Counted from the first letter of the stretch, positions 1 through 64,000 are shown. The stretch: DNA of 64,000 bases from Spirochaetota bacterium (GCA_965205605.1 CBDBHE010000007.1:288001-352000); one strand, 5' to 3'. Notes: a model not told the origin generated them from the letters alone. A program made the numbers and translations.

Positions 1-143
1 AAAACTGACTTCATCTCCATAAAAATATTGCTTCTTTATCTTTGTTTTTTTTCCAACCAACCCTTCAATTTCTTCTAAGGTTTTTCTTTTTTCATAGCGA
101 TAAGCACTTCCATGAATAAAAAAAAATCGCTTGTTCACTTTCA

Positions 144-863
144 TTAATTCCTCTCTAAACCCTTGCGATCAATTTGATCAATTTTCTCTTCCCTGTTCTC
201 AATTTCCAAGTCTTCTGGTTTTCTTCCTAAAAAATCAGCTTCTTTTTCTTGGACTTCATTAGAAAAAAAAGGGTTCTTTTCAAACCACGTTTGATTGGTA
301 TTTTCTTCTAGTCCTTCGTAACCTAGTTGTCTCACCACTTCAAATTGACCCGTTTCAATTAAACGCTCTAAATGATAGCTGAGAAGATCAAACAATTTTT
401 CTAAAGCTTCTTTATAAGCAAAAAAATCTCCTTCCTCTTGATAGTGATACAATCTAGAAAGTTTTAACGGCTTACTTCTCACATAATAAGCTTTCGTCTT
501 CACATCTCTCATCGTCACCCAAACGTCTAATATCAACCTTCTTTGATGAGGCCCGCTGGGATGCCTGCGAACTAAGACTTCTTTCTCAAATCTCCTAATC
601 TCCAAGTCTAAATAAACATCAGCTGATTTTAAACGATTGACCCATCTTAATTCTTGTGAAAACTTAAAATGATTTTCTAAGTCTTTTTTTAATAACTCCC
701 CCACTTCCCTAGCACTAGAAAAATTAATCACCGATCCAATATAAATCGTTTTTTCACTATAAGGAATAAATCGTTGATTGTTTTTAACCTGCTTGCCCGC
801 ACAATCTATCAAAAAAAAAAAACCAAGCAAACAAGCCAAACCAAACAAATCAAAAAATCTCAT
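144..863 (-). CDS. LptE-like outer-membrane lipoprotein (LPS assembly)
   Basis: Signal peptide with lipobox-like LIDC; TIYIGSVINFS...ADVYLDLEIRRF...LILDVWVTMRDVKT pattern resembles the LptE fold. Confidence 0.55.
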   Translation of the reverse strand: MRFFDLFGLACLLGFFFLIDCAGKQVKNNQRFIPYSEKTIYIGSVINFSSAREVGELLKKDLENHFKFSQELRWVNRLKSADVYLDLEIRRFEKEVLVRRHPSGPHQRRLILDVWVTMRDVKTKAYYVRSKPLKLSRLYHYQEEGDFFAYKEALEKLFDLLSYHLERLIETGQFEVVRQLGYEGLEENTNQTWFEKNPFFSNEVQEKEADFLGRKPEDLEIENREEKIDQIDRKGLERN

Positions 864-1013
864 TAAAAAATTATAAACTCCAAACTTCTTTTCTACTCTA
901 AAAAGACTATCTTTTTTTAATATTTTTTAATACAATCTTTTAAATAAACCCTTCTTTTTTTTCAAATGAATTTTATTTAAAACCCATTTATCTTCATTTA
1001 ATTTTTAACTCTG

Positions 1014-2546
1014 ATGCCTTTTTTATTTTCCTTTCGAGCTAAAGCCGATCTCTTTACCTACCACCTAAAAAAAACCCCCCAAGCTCCCTTTCTTCATACT
1101 CCCAAAAAGACGTTTACTTATCAACGTTTTCATGAAAAAATTTTGTCTTTTAAAAAAGCATTGCTCTCTGAAAACCTTCTTGGCTTTCTTTCCCCCCCCT
1201 TTCCTGTCGCCTTTGCCATTTCTCTTTCCTCAGACGCTTTGGCAATGCTCATCGCCCTCTATCAACTCAAAAAACCAACCCTTCTCTTAAACCCTCTCTT
1301 GCCTCCAAAATCTCTCTTGCCTTATCTAAAACAACTCCATATTCATCTCTTCATGGTCAGCGAACCTTCTTCTTATTTTTTACAATTTCCCTTTCCAAAA
1401 CCAATCAAGCTTTTAACTCTCTCTTCCTTAACCTTCCAAACGGCAAAACCTTCTTTGCCTTTGCCTATTAAGAAGCCTTCTCTGAAGAAGCCTTCTCTAA
1501 AAAAAATTAAAAAAACTTTTTTACAAAAACCCCTTCATTACCTTCTAACCTCCGGGAGCAGTCAAACACCCAAAATCGCCACCCTCTCTTTACAAAATCA
1601 CCTCTCCAACGCCAAACAAGTCAAACACCACTTTCACCTAAAAGCCAGTGATACTTGGCTGCTAAAACTCCCCCTTTATCATGTCAGTGGACTCTCTATT
1701 GTTTTCCGTTGCCTTTTAGTGGGAGCTGCTATTTTTTTGAGCCCACTGGCAATCTCTTCTACTTTGTTTTCTCATCCCTTCATCACACACCTCTCCATGG
1801 TCGAATCTCAATTTAAACAATCTCTCGCTGATCACCCCAGTGCCCTTCAAATCCCAAAAGTCATTCTCTTAGGGGGTAGCCTTCTTTCCAAACAAACCCT
1901 CTCCCTTGTCCATCAATTCAAAAATCTCTACCCCACCTACGGAATGACCGAAATGGCTTCTCAAGTCGCCACTTACTGCCCTAAAAAAAAAAAATTAAAA
2001 ATACTTCATTCCGTCAAGCTCAAAATTAAAAACCAACAAATCTTTTTAAAAGGACCTTCTCTTTTTTTAGGGTACGCAAAAACCCCTCATCAATTGAGCC
2101 CCGCTCTCGATTCATCTGGCTATTTTCCAAGTGGGGATCACGGTCAAAAATTAAACCACCATTACTTACATCTCTTCGGTCGAAAAGACAATCTCTTTAT
2201 TTCAGGAGGTGAAAACATTAGAGCAGAAGAAATCGAAGCCATCCTCTTATCATTAAATCCCGTCAAAAATGCTCTCGTCATCCCTATCCCCCACCCAAAA
2301 TGGACCCACATTCCTATTGCAATCTTGGACCTCCACCTTCCTAAAAAAAAAACTTTTAAAGCAACTTGCCAGTGGATCCAAACAAAGCTTCCTTCTCTCC
2401 TCCCTAAATACAAGATTCCCTCTTCTTTTTATCCATTCCCTAAAAAATATCTCCCTAAACAAGCAAATTGGGGTAAAATAAAACGAAAGCAAATCCAAAC
2501 TTACTTTCAAACAAAACTGGCCTCTTTACATAAAAAAATAAAATGA
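1014..2546 (+). CDS. menE: o-succinylbenzoate-CoA ligase (AMP-binding family)
   Basis: LTSGSSQTPK P-loop, LPLYHVSGLSI, YGMTEMASQV, GRKDNLFISGGENI, PKYKIP. Confidence 0.8.
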   Translation: MPFLFSFRAKADLFTYHLKKTPQAPFLHTPKKTFTYQRFHEKILSFKKALLSENLLGFLSPPFPVAFAISLSSDALAMLIALYQLKKPTLLLNPLLPPKSLLPYLKQLHIHLFMVSEPSSYFLQFPFPKPIKLLTLSSLTFQTAKPSLPLPIKKPSLKKPSLKKIKKTFLQKPLHYLLTSGSSQTPKIATLSLQNHLSNAKQVKHHFHLKASDTWLLKLPLYHVSGLSIVFRCLLVGAAIFLSPLAISSTLFSHPFITHLSMVESQFKQSLADHPSALQIPKVILLGGSLLSKQTLSLVHQFKNLYPTYGMTEMASQVATYCPKKKKLKILHSVKLKIKNQQIFLKGPSLFLGYAKTPHQLSPALDSSGYFPSGDHGQKLNHHYLHLFGRKDNLFISGGENIRAEEIEAILLSLNPVKNALVIPIPHPKWTHIPIAILDLHLPKKKTFKATCQWIQTKLPSLLPKYKIPSSFYPFPKKYLPKQANWGKIKRKQIQTYFQTKLASLHKKIK

Positions 2547-62015: not shown

Positions 62016-62145
62016 AAAAAGGCTCTTAAACTCTTTCTTAGACTCTTAAAAGTCGATTTTATTTCATCGTTTTTTTTTGCCCTTGCCTGCTCTAAAAAAG
62101 AAATTTTCTCAAAATATAAACTCAAGTACTCACTCATTAAATGAC

Positions 62146-63933
62146 TTAAGAAGAAGGAGAAGAATGATAAAGGGTACTGCCTTTTGTTTTAAATTCTTGA
62201 GATTTTTTTTTCATGCCTTTTTTTAAGGCTTTTGAAGAAGAAAGGTTTTGGTCTTTGGCATATTGACGGATTTCTTCGGTAATTTTCATCGAACAAAACC
62301 GAGGACCACACATCGAACAAAAATGAGCGACTTTAGCACTTTCAGCCGGAAGGGTTTCATCGTGATATTCTTTAGCTCTTTTGGGATCAAGGCCTAGGTT
62401 AAATTGGTCATTCCAACGAAACTCAAATCGAGCTAAAGAAAGAGCATCATCTCTTTTTTGAGCTTGTGGGTGAGACTTGGCAAGGTCTGAAGCGTGAGCG
62501 GCTATTTTATAAGCAATAATGCCCTCCTTGACATCCTCTTTATTAGGAAGTCCTAAATGTTCTTTTGGGGTCACATAACACAACATCGCTGTGCCGTACG
62601 AGCCAATGGCTGCGGCTCCAATCGCTGAAGTAATATGATCATACGCAGGAGCAATATCAGTCGTCAGAGGCCCTAAAGTATAAAAAGGAGCTTCTTTACA
62701 AACCTTCATTTGTTTATCAACATTTTCTTTAATTCGATGAAAAGGCACATGACCTGGACCTTCGATCATCACTTGTACCTCGTGCTTCCAGGCGACATCG
62801 GTGAGCTCTCCTAAAGTTTCAAGCTCTGCAAACTGAGCTTCATCATTGGCATCAGCAATACTGCCAGGTCTTAGCCCATCGCCTAGGCTAAAACTCACAT
62901 TATAAGCTTTCATAATGTCACAAATCTCTTCAAAATGAGTGTATAAAAAATTTTCTTGGTGATGAGCCAAACACCACTTAGCTAAAATAGAACCCCCTCT
63001 AGAAACCACCCCCGTTAGTCGCTTTGAAGTCATCGGTACATACCTCAGTAGCACTCCTGCATGAATGGTGAAATAATCAACACCTTGCTCTGCTTGTTCG
63101 ATTAAGGTTTGTTTGTAAATCTCCCAAGTTAATTCTTCAGCAACTCCCCCTACTTTTTCTAAAGCTTGGTAAATAGGCACCGTTCCAATAGGAACAGGGG
63201 AGTTTCTTAAAATCCATTCTCTTGTTTGGGGAATGTTTTTTCCTGTCGAAAGATCCATCACCGTGTCCCCTCCCCATAAAATCGCCCACGCCATTTTTTC
63301 TACTTCTTCCCCAATATCCGAACGTATGGCCGAATTACCAATATTGGCATTAATTTTCACTAAAAAATGACGACCAATGATCATCGGTTCTAACTCACTA
63401 TGATTAATATTACAAGGGATAATCGCTCGTCCTAAAGCAATTTCTTTTCTGACAAACTCTGCCTCCATCCCTTCTCTAATCGCCACATATTCCATCTCAG
63501 GGGTAATCTCTCCTTTCCTGGCATAATGCATTTGACTCACATTCTTCCCCTTCTTTGCTCTTAAAATCTTTCTTTCTCTTCCCTTAAAAAAAGAAGTGCC
63601 TTCAAGGCGACTTTCTTCTTTAAAATCATGCCCTTTTATCACTTCTACGTCCCCTCCTCTCAAAATCCACTCTTCTCTCTTGCCCTCTAACCCTACCCTA
63701 ACATCCACCTCTCTTTGCGTATACGCTCCCGAAGTGTCATATACCCTAAAGGGTTCATTTTTTATCGTTTCCCCATTTTCTAAAATCGTATCCGTTAAAC
63801 AAATCTCTCTCATCGGTACTTGCAAAAAAGGATATCGTTTCCCTTTAAGATACACTTTTTTTGACGCTTCACTTAAATCGTAGTTTAGTAAATAAGAGCT
63901 TTTGTTTTTTTTATGTTGGTTTTTATCTTTCAT
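62146..63933 (-). CDS. thiC: Phosphomethylpyrimidine synthase
   Basis: [49 protein letters not shown]. Confidence 0.98.
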
Positions 63934-64000
63934 ATTTAAGGTCCTTTTTTAAAGAGAGATTTTTTAATTTTATTATAAAATATCCTTTCATGATATTCTT

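What the first reader, a model, noticed from the sequence alone, without database searches (positions are those of the whole stretch)
1..64000. Saw-tooth GC skew across the window, flipping every few kb and inside genes
Seen: skew does not follow gene direction. Plus-strand purN is C-rich (2881-2940: 28 C, 6 G) while plus-strand tsaD starts G-rich. Within dapE the plus strand goes from 27 G / 7 C (40981-41040) to 4 G / 21 C (41701-41760). C-to-G jumps look abrupt and intergenic (~8.8, 35.7, 46.8, 49.3, 52.75, 60.3 kb). G-to-C changes look gradual and intragenic (dapE, cca, dapB, thiC). Proteins follow the bias: P/L/S/H/T-rich versus E/G/R/V-rich. This is not the normal two-replichore pattern. 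Inference: many initiation sites, or a strand-asymmetric mutation process anchored at specific intergenic sites.
Basis: partly seen in the sequence, partly recalled or inferred. Interest (0 to 1): 0.72.

Follow-up and report, generated by a model that had tools for sequence, protein, structure and literature searches.

The report
Mutation-scarred chromosome zone around a prophage
The saw-tooth strand bias is real but local: it is the fine grain of a roughly 150-kb stretch of an otherwise ordinary bacterial chromosome, centred on a phage-like element, where genes have become G+C-richer, strand bias resets at gene borders and short tandem repeats pile up.

Summary
Observation confirmed.

It is not a chromosome-wide pattern. 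The 1.69-Mb genome has a normal two-arm skew that switches at dnaA (C7 ~464 kb). The window lies in the genome's only hump of raised G+C. Fourfold-site GC reaches 0.47 against 0.2-0.27. In host genes alone the hump centres at window 31.4-31.9 kb (+-3.6 kb), inside a phage-like element.

The saw-tooth is phased to genes. Coding-strand GC3 skew falls 5' to 3' in 37 of 41 window genes, against 50% of 1060 elsewhere. Skew steps up at 43 of 56 gene junctions, including 5 of 6 convergent ones. The strand running 5'->3' away from a spacer is therefore G-enriched on both sides. The amplitude follows the hump. Tandem repeats are 4-fold enriched, and proteins shift toward GC-rich codons.

Best reading (0.4): repeated in-place DNA transactions of the phage element (origin firing, or terminase breaks with resection and repair synthesis) impose error-prone, G-inserting, slippage-prone synthesis on nearby DNA.

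Against it: spacer GC is not raised, and no relative was available to polarise substitutions.

"Many chromosomal origins" is not supported.

The parts
1..64000 (.). Core of a regional hump (C7 ~240-400 kb) with raised coding G+C, gene-phased skew and excess tandem repeats
   Evidence: GC4 per 20-kb bin rises from 0.23-0.27 to 0.47 and falls back. Fitted on host genes only, the centre is window 31.4-31.9 kb +-3.6 kb, sd 60 kb. The window holds 66 tandem-repeat loci where about 16 are expected.
17045..33138 (-). Late (head, tail, lysis) module of a phage-like element; coding strand extremely G-rich
   Evidence: Large terminase 31375-33138 (NCBIfam TIGR01547, PHROG 2). Major head protein 27322-28332 (PHROG 247, E 7e-55). 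Tape-measure-like 22727-23761. Endolysin 17045-18046. Plus-strand skew is -0.25 to -0.69. No integrase was found in the window.
33233..33450 (.). Iteron-like tandem arrays (13 nt x 8.5 and 21 nt x 4.1) between the terminase gene and the replication gene; candidate origin or packaging site (inferred)
34793..35662 (+). Phage replication initiator / DnaD-like helicase loader
   Evidence: PHROG 6493 E 4e-29; PHROGs 11233, 428, 678 and 270 also match
34216..35852 (.). Main sign switch of skew (-0.60 to +0.54) between the two divergent gene blocks
   Evidence: Segmentation and fine profile. The promoter-like element TGCTTGRCRT sits on the + strand at 35802 and on the - strand at 33525 and 33748.
35841..40858 (+). 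G-rich plus-strand block: small genes (HTH_17, LB_289 family) and an 864-aa protein that looks like an outer-membrane protein
   Evidence: Skew +0.54. Family matches. Signal peptide and C-terminal F seen in the translation.
40855..42051 (-). dapE, full length, with the steepest intragenic change of skew (+0.53 at its 3' end to -0.39 at its 5' end; step at ~41.3 kb)
   Evidence: TIGR01900 matched over residues 25-393 of 398. Profile and segmentation. GC3-skew difference 5' minus 3' is +1.24.
1014..4139 (+). menE-purN-dusB: host genes with a C-rich coding strand (fourfold-site C 0.435, G 0.033)
8720..11551 (+). G-rich host block (lipoprotein-like gene, tsaD, hisA); upward step of 1.0 at 8718
46748..46801 (.). 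Upward step (+0.81) at the convergent htpG/cca junction, where no promoter is expected
49219..49314 (.). Upward step (+0.83) in the spacer upstream of rplM. Skew then falls without a break across orf239 and dapB, which overlap.
52731..52843 (.). Largest upward step (+1.13), in the spacer between ispA and cyoE
59965..60323 (.). Upward step (+0.67) in a divergent spacer
42095..43884 (-). 12.7 perfect copies of a 141-nt repeat inside a large gene; the most extreme tandem repeat in the zone

Best explanation
SHOWN.

The saw-tooth is the fine structure of a single regional anomaly. It sits on a chromosome that otherwise replicates from one dnaA-linked origin.

Over ~150 kb centred on a phage-like element, coding DNA has gained G and C at synonymous sites and in amino-acid choice. 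Short tandem duplications and long A/T runs are in excess.

GC skew resets at gene borders that carry a spacer. Just right of a border the + strand is G-enriched; just left of it the - strand is. Skew therefore falls gradually across each gene or operon, whichever way it is transcribed, and jumps up at the next border.

INFERRED.

The element repeatedly carries out its DNA transactions in place: firing of its own origin (run-off or escape replication) and/or terminase cutting, followed by long resection. The neighbouring chromosome is thus re-synthesised again and again by a low-fidelity, slippage-prone regime. That regime tends to put G into the new strand opposite A or T.

The frequency falls with distance from the element over tens of kb.

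The synthesis tracts start in AT-rich spacers and run 5'->3' into the genes on both sides. This would give the dyad-symmetric saw-tooth.

The changes become heritable because cells survive abortive events, or because the re-synthesised DNA is packaged and recombined into other cells.

The element's own divergent gene blocks give the largest step, at 34.2-35.85 kb.
For: The anomaly is local.
- Genome GC is 0.27-0.32 per contig, with a two-arm skew. dnaA lies at the switch.
- The only long run of G+C-rich 5-kb windows is C7 265-365 kb.
- GC3 is 0.347 in 84 genes there against 0.213 in 1263 others.
- The fourfold-site GC hump, fitted on host genes only, is centred at window 31.4-31.9 kb +-3.6 kb. 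That lies inside the element, at the terminase/origin region. Its sd is 60 kb.

The skew is phased to genes.
- The 5'-minus-3' GC3-skew difference is positive in 37 of 41 window genes: 23 of 26 host genes and 14 of 15 in the element zone. Elsewhere it is positive in 50.3% of 1060 genes (P 4e-6 and 8e-4). In 20-kb bins its size rises and falls with the hump, from 0.03 up to 0.40 and down to -0.04.
- It is absent in relatives: 46/109, 27/70, 24/39 and 4/11 genes positive.
- Upward steps occur at 43 of 56 junctions. The mean step is +0.06 where genes overlap and +0.18 to +0.20 where there is a spacer.
- In a stricter gene set, 19 of 24 junctions step up, against 288 of 646 elsewhere (P 3e-4).
- Convergent junctions: 5 of 6 step up, against 27% of 158 elsewhere (P 6e-4).

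The spectrum fits G entering one strand.
- Fourfold sites of host minus-strand genes run from G .25 / C .12 at the 5' end to G .11 / C .25 at the 3' end. T is lost and A is unchanged.
- Twofold sites move the same way, more weakly.
- There is no dependence on the neighbouring base.

There are signs of slippage.
- Tandem repeats number 98, 126 and 78 per 100 kb in the left host part, the element and the right host part, against 25 elsewhere.
- A/T runs of 8 or more in spacers are 6.4-7.9 per kb across the hump, against 4.4 elsewhere.

Proteins shift.
- GARP residues rise from .161 to .194 and FYMINK residues fall from .392 to .333 (P 7e-6 and 5e-8).

The element has the needed parts.
- It carries a replication initiator, iteron-like arrays and a large terminase.

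The scale matches experiment.
- Mutation hot spots at breaks in E. coli peak within 2 kb and fall off to ~60 kb in both directions, through resection and gap filling (Shee 2012, PMC3607216, abstract).
- Higher error in phage-origin run-off replication was proposed for Bartonella (Guy 2012, PMC3483213, passages).

Weak hints.
- Increments favour plus-strand C on the left flank and plus-strand G on the right flank.
- In run X1, contig depth rises from 3.5-4.5 at 1-7 kb to 6.9 at 8.7-14.4 kb and 7.6-8.6 at 14.4-22 kb.
Against: - Spacer G+C is not raised in the hump (0.22-0.28 against 0.226-0.247). A process that acts on all DNA should raise it. Run expansion or selection in spacers might offset this, but that is an inference.
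- On the right side, positive skew ends abruptly at 41.3 kb inside dapE. Beyond that, skew is negative again. There is therefore no clean two-sided skew field in the host DNA.
- Host genes on average gain more C than G on the coding strand, whereas the element's genes gain G. This needs a second factor.
- No Y-family polymerase (PF00817) was found in the 91%-complete genome. mutS is present.
- No integrase was found, so the element may be defective. Its activity is not shown.
- The depth hint comes from contigs at 4-9x in a sample that also holds a diverged variant. Strain mixture could produce it.
- Substitutions could not be polarised. The genome's family has no other member among the genomes searched, and the nearest HtpG is 56% identical.
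- This is one genome and one element, so the link with the element is an association of n = 1.
Confidence: 0.4

Rival explanations
1. Transcription-linked strand-asymmetric mutation alone. Every AT-rich spacer fires transcripts in both directions, and the non-template strand gains G near each start. Some cis-acting feature of the element's neighbourhood raises the rate.
For: - The effect is confined to coding or transcribed DNA; spacers are not G+C-enriched.
- The phase follows genes and operons. The dapB-orf239 pair and the rplM-rpsI pair each behave as one unit.
- Both divergent blocks of the element have G-rich coding strands.
- Opposite skews at the 5' and 3' ends of genes, tied to transcription, are known in fungi (PMC3315797, abstract).
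Against: - Sense transcription alone cannot give upward steps at convergent junctions (5 of 6). Nor can it give a coding strand that is C-enriched beyond baseline at 3' ends. Antisense starts at terminators would have to be assumed.
- Plus-strand host genes (menE, purN, dusB, htpG, ispA, ung) have C-rich coding strands throughout.
- It gives no reason for a 150-kb distance dependence, nor for the excess of tandem repeats.
- Nothing of the kind is seen in the other 1060 genes of the same cell.
Confidence: 0.2
2. GC-biased gene conversion. The element, acting as a transducing phage or gene transfer agent, makes its neighbourhood recombine far more often than the rest of the chromosome. Biased repair of heteroduplex DNA then raises G+C. 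Divergent spacers stop heteroduplex, so only genes are affected.
For: - The hump in synonymous and amino-acid G+C is smooth, symmetric and centred on packaging genes.
- It is specific to coding DNA.
- Phage-driven mobility of flanking DNA is established. Lateral transduction papers were seen as search listings only; the Bartonella run-off replication and gene transfer agent work was seen as passages.
Against: - Biased conversion favours G and C alike, so by itself it gives no strand asymmetry and no polarity along genes (reasoned, not computed).
- It does not explain the excess of tandem repeats and A/T runs.
- Lateral transduction is one-directional, whereas the hump is symmetric.
Confidence: 0.12
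3. Selection on the coding sequence or the mRNA of genes in this neighbourhood, for example on codon choice, Rho loading sites or transcript stability, rather than a mutational process.
For: - Only coding DNA is G+C-enriched.
- The polarity follows genes.
- C-rich, G-poor RNA at 3' ends resembles Rho loading sites (recalled, not tested).
Against: - No known selective agent acts by distance along the chromosome.
- rpsI, presumably highly expressed as a ribosomal-protein gene, has the lowest GC3 in the window (0.23).
- Amino-acid composition shifts in housekeeping enzymes, and several of them score below their family cut-offs (menE, dapE, cca, hisB). This looks like pressure, not adaptation.
- The tandem-repeat excess is left unexplained.
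Confidence: 0.08
4. Mosaic history: foreign segments, local inversions between replichores, or assembly misjoins, each carrying its old skew.
For: - The G-rich block 8720-11551 would match its neighbours if inverted.
- The listed Logan contigs of X1 and X2 stop at 8624 and restart at 8695, so the 8.7-kb step is not bridged by them.
Against: - GC3 of flank genes is unimodal and graded, not a mix of native and foreign values.
- The genes are core housekeeping genes.
- Inversions cannot create gradients inside intact genes such as dapE, thiC and cca.
- Independent contigs match with 0 differences across 8695-14394 and other stretches, and pieces from a second sample are identical.
Confidence: 0.05
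5. The chromosome is replicated from many origins spaced a few kb apart.
For: The shape of the profile, with abrupt rises and linear falls, is that of multi-origin skew domains described in human DNA (recalled, not from a call).
Against: - There is a single dnaA at the single genome-wide skew switch.
- The saw-tooth is absent from the rest of the genome.
- The steps coincide with most gene borders rather than with a set of sites sharing a motif.
Confidence: 0.03

Closest known systems
Run-off (escape) replication from a phage-derived origin, as coupled to the Bartonella gene transfer agent
   Same: A phage-derived replication module and packaging genes sit in the chromosome. The effect extends symmetrically over tens to hundreds of kb of host DNA. 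A higher error rate of such replication was explicitly proposed (PMC3483213, PMC3610622, passages).
   Different: In Bartonella what was shown is amplification, and only a minor rise in synonymous divergence was seen. Here amplification is not shown, but a strong compositional imprint is. The element here has no relatives in the other 400 genomes of its phylum searched with its capsid protein.
Mutation hot spots at double-strand breaks in E. coli (resection and gap-filling synthesis)
   Same: The effect is two-sided, strongest close by and falls off over ~60 kb (PMC3607216, abstract). The fitted sd of the hump here is 60 kb.
   Different: That is a laboratory result that depends on DinB and RpoS. 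No Y-family polymerase was found here. No break has been shown here. Nothing phased to genes was reported in the abstract read.
[quoted passage not shown]
   Same: Skew changes sign along genes, affects fourfold sites and affects amino-acid use (PMC3315797, abstract).
   Different: In fungi the polarity is reversed (C-biased at 5', G-biased at 3'), the effect is genome-wide, and it is attributed to phases of RNA polymerase II transcription. Here it is confined to one region of a bacterial chromosome.
Extreme GC skew and raised G+C of gene transfer agent clusters in Alphaproteobacteria
   Same: Phage-derived head-tail clusters lie in peaks of GC skew that arise from G-over-C codon choice, with raised G+C (PMC9836097, abstract).
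   Different: There the property belongs to the cluster and to core genes on the leading strand. Here it spreads in a graded way into flanking host genes and reverses within genes.
Saw-tooth skew domains between replication origins in human DNA (recalled, not from a call)
   Same: Abrupt upward steps and linear declines between them.
   Different: Those domains are of megabase scale with true origins. Here the units are single genes or operons of 0.5-2.6 kb, and the chromosome has one origin.

Membership tests
Tailed prophage | Head, packaging, tail and lysis genes in one block | tested here: met
   Large terminase, major head protein, tape-measure-like protein and endolysin at 17.0-33.1 kb. 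The capsid protein is 25-30% identical to siphovirus capsid proteins.
Tailed prophage | Integrase and attachment-site repeats at the ends | tested here: not met
   No integrase or recombinase family matched any window ORF submitted. No end repeat was seen among the 20 repeat families shown, out of at least 60 found.
Gene transfer agent | Compact head-tail-lysis cluster without integration functions | tested here: inconclusive
   The late module is ~16 kb and has no integrase. However, a phage replication initiator lies next to it.
Gene transfer agent | Vertically inherited and conserved across a host lineage | tested here: not met
   The capsid protein was found in none of the 400 other genomes of the phylum that were searched.
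Gene transfer agent | Particles carry random host DNA | not testable with these tools
   This needs DNA from purified particles.
Run-off / escape replication zone | Phage-type initiator and origin inside the chromosome | tested here: met
   DnaD-like initiator (PHROG 6493, E 4e-29) with iteron-like arrays 1.3 kb away. That the arrays are the origin is inferred.
Run-off / escape replication zone | Copy number peaks at the origin and falls off on both sides | tested here: inconclusive
   Only contig-level depths were available: 3.5-4.5, then 6.9, then 7.6-8.6 toward the element on the left side, in one sample. Strain mixture is not excluded.
GC-biased gene conversion tract | G+C raised in all sequence classes of the recombining region | tested here: not met
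   Spacer GC is 0.22-0.28 against 0.226-0.247 elsewhere, while fourfold-site GC rises to 0.36-0.47.
GC-biased gene conversion tract | No strand asymmetry | tested here: not met
   There is strong skew phased to genes.
Multi-origin chromosome | Several initiator-linked origins with a skew switch at each, genome-wide | tested here: not met
   There is one dnaA match and one global switch. The saw-tooth is limited to one region.

The most novel reading that the evidence does not exclude
A resident, perhaps domesticated, phage element turns ~150 kb of its host's chromosome into a standing zone of localized hypermutation. Its origin and/or terminase repeatedly trigger break- or recombination-dependent DNA synthesis. 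That synthesis starts in the AT-rich spacers and runs into the genes on both sides. It writes G into the new strand and duplicates short motifs, strongly enough to reshape codon use and the amino-acid make-up of housekeeping proteins. This would be a natural bacterial counterpart of break-associated mutation showers, visible as an evolutionary imprint.
Probability: 0.25. Interest if true: 0.9.

Novelty: new variant of a known kind. Interest (0 to 1): 0.75.

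Why it matters
Base composition within a bacterial chromosome is usually explained by three things: replication direction, gene expression and foreign origin.

Here a fourth factor appears. A mobile element seems to imprint its neighbourhood over ~150 kb. It changes synonymous sites, protein composition and repeat content of core genes.

If the cause is in-place phage replication or cutting, three things follow:
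- Prophages can locally raise and redirect mutation in host genes.
- The proposal made for Bartonella run-off replication would gain its first clear compositional example.
- Such humps could be used to find active or long-resident elements in genomes.

The reversal of skew within genes, independent of gene direction, is not predicted by current bacterial models of strand asymmetry. It offers a testable handle on where DNA synthesis tracts start.

Tried and rejected
Searches that gave nothing useful
- Relatives of the element: single-protein scans with the capsid protein found none in genome contigs or viral contigs. None was found in 400 other genomes of the phylum. Only hits of 30% identity or less were found in phage records. 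The element's skew therefore could not be compared with that of kin.
- A scan with ThiC to place the organism returned a mixture of phyla and was uninformative.
- Sequencing runs: no RNA holder listed.
- All four runs laid are contigs, so there is no depth by position and no starts or ends. No strain lacking the element was seen. X4 gave only short low-similarity pieces.
- htpG in relatives was uninformative, because the loci differ in orientation and the relatives are G+C-richer overall.

Mechanistic ideas tested and dropped
- The 864-aa ORF as a primase-polymerase: it has no family match, and it carries a signal peptide and a C-terminal F, like an outer-membrane protein.
- cDNA-mediated conversion: no reverse transcriptase (PF00078) was found in the 91%-complete genome.
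- An SOS-type polymerase: no PF00817 match.
- Misalignment (dislocation) mutagenesis: G or C gain at fourfold sites does not depend on the neighbouring base.
- Selection against slippery A/T runs as the cause of coding G+C: purN keeps A8-A9 runs, and coding runs are only modestly fewer (1.7 against 2.55 per kb).
- A shared motif at the upward steps: none seen. The TGCTTGRCRT element is confined to the phage-like element, with 9 of its 13 genome hits there.
- A phage-borne duplicate of the dapE 3' end as the cause of the switch inside dapE: no such repeat appears among the 20 repeat families shown.

Literature
- Searches for a described prophage-centred compositional hump or a bacterial intragenic saw-tooth found none in the library searched.

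Full report

Yes. Skew in 1-kb windows runs from -0.722 (32.5-33.5 kb) to +0.674 (38.5-39.5 kb).

Windows of 60 nt with |G-C| >= 17 make up 113 of 1066 in the window. On the seven other contigs they make up 0.41% of 15,728.

The bias is present at all three codon positions and does not follow the coding strand. Plus-strand menE, purN, dusB, htpG, ispA and ung have GC3 skew of -0.54 to -0.81. Plus-strand 8922-9419 and tsaD have +0.79 and +0.34. The minus-strand gene 49314-50033 has a C-rich coding strand.

A likelihood segmentation places the main boundaries at 3.2, 8.7, 11.55, 23.2, 34.2, 35.85, 41.3, 44.4 and 60.2 kb.

The largest upward steps, measured with 300-nt flanks, are at 52729, 8718, 27151, 49236, 44379, 46748, 34215, 35386 and 60227. 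Of the top 14, 9 are intergenic or within 30 nt of a gene end. All 8 largest downward steps lie inside genes.

**2. Where the window sits.**

The window is C7:288001-352000 of a 1,686,894-base, 8-contig genome that is 91% complete. The contigs have 27-32% G+C.

The genome has an ordinary two-arm skew. C7 is negative up to ~460 kb and positive beyond, and the other contigs are each of one sign. The only match to the DnaA family lies at C7:463770-465050, at that switch.

The chromosome therefore has one canonical origin, 112-176 kb from the window.

**3. A regional hump.**

The window is the core of the genome's only long G+C-rich stretch. Flagged 5-kb windows (G+C above 0.345, or |skew| above 0.3) number 4 of 186 on the other contigs. 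On C7 they form a near-continuous run from 265 to 365 kb.

GC3 is 0.347 +- 0.054 in 84 genes there, against 0.213 +- 0.043 in 1263 others.

Fourfold-site GC per 20-kb bin rises smoothly: 0.23-0.27, then 0.30, 0.36, 0.41, 0.47. It then falls back through 0.40, 0.36 and 0.32 to 0.30. Gene values in the flanks are unimodal and graded, not a mix of two classes.

I fitted the hump on host genes only, leaving out window 13.3-41 kb. The centre comes out at C7 319.4 kb (Laplace fit) or 319.9 kb (Gaussian fit), +-3.5-3.8 kb. That is window 31.4-31.9 kb. The Gaussian sd is 60 kb and the amplitude is +0.14 on a base of 0.267.

**4. What lies at the centre.**

A phage-like element lies there. Its parts are:
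- large terminase, 31375-33138;
- major head protein, 27322-28332 (PHROG 247, E 7e-55);
- a tape-measure-like protein, 22727-23761;
- endolysin, 17045-18046;
- a DnaD-like replication initiator, 34793-35662 (PHROG 6493, E 4e-29);
- an HTH_17/excisionase-like protein, 37033-37356.

The late genes are on the minus strand. The genes at 35.8-40.9 kb are on the plus strand. Both blocks have very G-rich coding strands, so the largest step (-0.60 to +0.54) falls between them at 34.2-35.85 kb.

A promoter-like element, TGCTTGRCRT, has 9 of its 13 genome-wide hits here. Iteron-like arrays lie at 33233-33450.

No integrase was found among the window ORFs submitted.

The capsid protein has no close relatives:
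- none in two collection scans;
- none in 400 other genomes of the phylum;
- 30% identity or less in phage records.

The 864-aa ORF at 38264-40858 has a signal peptide and ends in F, which looks like an outer-membrane protein.

The flanking genes are ordinary housekeeping genes: menE, purN, dusB, hisB, tsaD, hisA, folB, dapE, htpG, cca, rpsI, rplM, dapB, a prenyl synthase, cyoE, ung, tyrA and thiC.

**5. The saw-tooth is phased to genes and is dyad-symmetric.**

In the fine profile, plus-strand skew falls from left to right across almost every gene, whichever way it is transcribed. It then steps up at the next border. In gene terms, coding-strand skew falls from 5' to 3'.

At third codon positions, I took the skew of the first 40% of each gene minus that of the last 40%. 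This difference is positive in 37 of 41 window genes of 600 nt or more (mean +0.29). That breaks down as 23 of 26 host genes and 14 of 15 in the element zone. In the other 1060 genes it is positive in 50.3% (mean 0.01). The tests give P = 4e-6 and 8e-4.

In 20-kb bins the pooled difference rises and falls with the hump: 0.03-0.05 at 220-260 kb, 0.12-0.16, then 0.23-0.40 at 300-360 kb, then 0.14 and 0.10, and -0.04 beyond 400 kb.

Four relatives of the same order show no such gradient: 46/109, 27/70, 24/39 and 4/11 genes positive.

At junctions, skew steps up in 43 of 56 cases. The mean step is +0.06 for overlapping genes (6 of 9 positive) and +0.18 to +0.20 where there is a spacer (37 of 47 positive). 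With a stricter gene set, 19 of 24 step up, against 288 of 646 elsewhere (P = 3e-4).

Convergent junctions also step up: 5 of 6, mean +0.21. In the rest of the genome they step down: 27% positive, mean -0.13, n = 158 (P = 6e-4).

Gene 3' ends are therefore not merely less G-rich. At fourfold sites of the 11 host minus-strand genes, coding-strand G falls .25.24.18.11 and C rises .12.17.19.25. The baselines are .15 and .10.

The simplest description needs no transcription direction. On both sides of a spacer, the strand that runs 5'->3' away from it is G-enriched.

**6. What changed.**

The gains are A/T to G/C.
- On the strand that gains G, T falls most: 42-43% relative to baseline. A falls 10-18%, and C falls 21-66%.
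- Twofold sites show the same direction in transitions. The G fraction of NNR codons rises to .35-.49 in G-rich genes. The C fraction of NNY codons rises to .43-.51 in C-rich genes. A weaker gradient is seen along genes.
- There is no dependence on the neighbouring base.
- Proteins follow. In host genes of the window, GARP residues rise from .161 to .194 and FYMINK residues fall from .392 to .333 (P = 7e-6 and 5e-8). The flanks show intermediate values.
- menE, dapE, cca and hisB score below their family cut-offs.

**7. A third anomaly in the same place.**

Tandem repeats (period 4 or more) number 66 loci in the window. By zone they are 98, 126 and 78 per 100 kb in the left host part, the element and the right host part. 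The rest of the genome has 25 per 100 kb (Poisson P = 5e-5, 3e-14, 3e-5). The outer flanks are at baseline.

Spacers in the element are largely made of perfect short repeats. The terminase itself carries (ER)n and (GN)n inserts.

A/T runs of 8 or more in spacers are 6.4-7.9 per kb across the whole hump, against 4.4 per kb elsewhere.

**8. What does not fit a simple field.**

- Spacer G+C is not raised: 0.22-0.28 against 0.226-0.247.
- On the right side, positive skew ends at 41.3 kb inside dapE, and the host DNA beyond is negative again.
- Host genes gain on average more C than G on the coding strand, whereas the element's genes gain G.
- Farther out, increments favour plus-strand C on the left and plus-strand G on the right. 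The effect is small, and similar fluctuations occur at 180-220 kb.

**9. Reads.**

Only Logan contigs were available. X1 and X2 are one sample. X3 is a second sample of the same study. All carry the sequence with 0 differences over the listed pieces.

The right edge of the G-rich block (11.55 kb) is bridged by a contig. The 8.7-kb step is not bridged by the pieces listed.

X2 also holds a variant of 13.8-18 kb that is about 10-13% diverged.

In X1, contig depths rise toward the element: 4.5 and 3.5 at 1-7 kb, then 5.6, then 6.9 at 8.7-14.4 kb, then 7.6-8.6 at 14.4-22 kb. In X2 the purely host contig 8695-11990 has depth 6.7, against 4.8-5.5 farther out.

This is a hint of extra copies reaching into host DNA. 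But these are per-contig depths at low cover in a mixed sample.

**10. Explanation.**

I commit, at about 0.4, to a mutational zone caused by the element's DNA transactions in place.

The proposal is that origin firing and/or terminase cutting, followed by long resection, leads to repeated re-synthesis of the neighbourhood. The polymerase regime involved is low-fidelity and slippage-prone and tends to insert G. Tracts start in AT-rich spacers.

Two published points bear on it. In E. coli, break-provoked mutation is maximal within 2 kb, falls off to ~60 kb in both directions, and depends on resection and gap filling (PMC3607216, abstract). Guy et al. proposed that phage-origin run-off replication might be more error-prone and spread through transfer, but saw only a minor effect in Bartonella (PMC3483213, passages).

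What is shown: the anatomy, the statistics and the co-location with the element. What is inferred: activity of the element, the polymerase regime, where tracts start, and the route to inheritance.

Rivals:
- transcription-only asymmetry with antisense starts, 0.2;
- biased gene conversion through transduction, 0.12;
- selection on coding sequence, 0.08;
- mosaic, inversion or misjoin, 0.05;
- many chromosomal origins, 0.03.

**11. Comparison with what is known, and novelty.**

The closest known cases are:
- Bartonella run-off replication with its gene transfer agent;
- break-associated mutation hot spots;
- the opposite 5'/3' skews of fungal genes (PMC3315797, abstract);
- the extreme skew and raised G+C of alphaproteobacterial gene transfer agent clusters (PMC9836097, abstract).

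None combines a distance-graded imprint on host core genes with a skew reversal inside genes that is independent of gene direction.

Four literature searches found no description of such a hump or of a bacterial intragenic saw-tooth in the library searched. Subscription journals are mostly outside that library.

I file it as a new variant of known kinds of localized mutagenesis. The bolder reading is stated separately.

Noticed in passing
window 42058-44499 (-), repeats at 42095-43884 and 43946-44218: The gene holds 12.7 perfect copies of a 141-nt unit and 4.6 copies of a 60-nt unit. Long ORFs are open in three frames on both strands. The repeat part reads as a different frame from the N-terminal part, which has an EEVLKRGA(L/Q)KEE motif. 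This suggests a frameshift or a very recent expansion.
   Followed up: partly
window 16.7-38.2 kb (16806, 16851, 16943, 27198, 28629, 33525, 33748, 38210 on -; 35802 on +): A ~40-70-nt promoter-like element with the core TGCTTGRCRT is almost confined to the phage-like element. Three copies in the plus-strand gene block point against the genes.
   Followed up: partly
window 31375-33138 (-): The large terminase carries low-complexity inserts, (ER)7 and a run of GN/GK repeats followed by E7, yet keeps a full-length open frame.
   Followed up: no
window 13.8-18.0 kb, run X2: The same sample holds contigs of a variant of this part of the element that is about 10-13% diverged (25 differences in 230 nt, 42 in 310, 51 in 344). 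Kin of the element therefore exist in nature.
   Followed up: no
window 1-22 kb, runs X1 and X2: Per-contig depth rises toward the element (3.5-4.5, then 6.9, then 7.6-8.6), including over a purely host contig at 8695-11990. The cause could be extra copies or strain mixture.
   Followed up: partly
whole hump, C7 240-400 kb: Spacer G+C stays at the genome's level while fourfold-site G+C nearly doubles. Long A/T runs in spacers are about 1.6-fold enriched. This is not explained by any single model considered.
   Followed up: partly
window 10694-11482 (+): HisA matches the model named hisA_euk (TIGR02129, 289.5 bits against a cut-off of 229.3) far better than the bacterial HisA models.
   Followed up: no
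window 37620-40858 (+): An LB_289-family protein is followed by an 864-aa protein with a signal peptide and C-terminal F but no family match. It may be a surface protein carried by, or lying next to, the element.
   Followed up: no
C7 440-470 kb: The origin region has the strongest ordinary skew (fourfold-site skew -0.43 to +0.57) and a small excess of tandem repeats (11 in one 20-kb bin).
   Followed up: no
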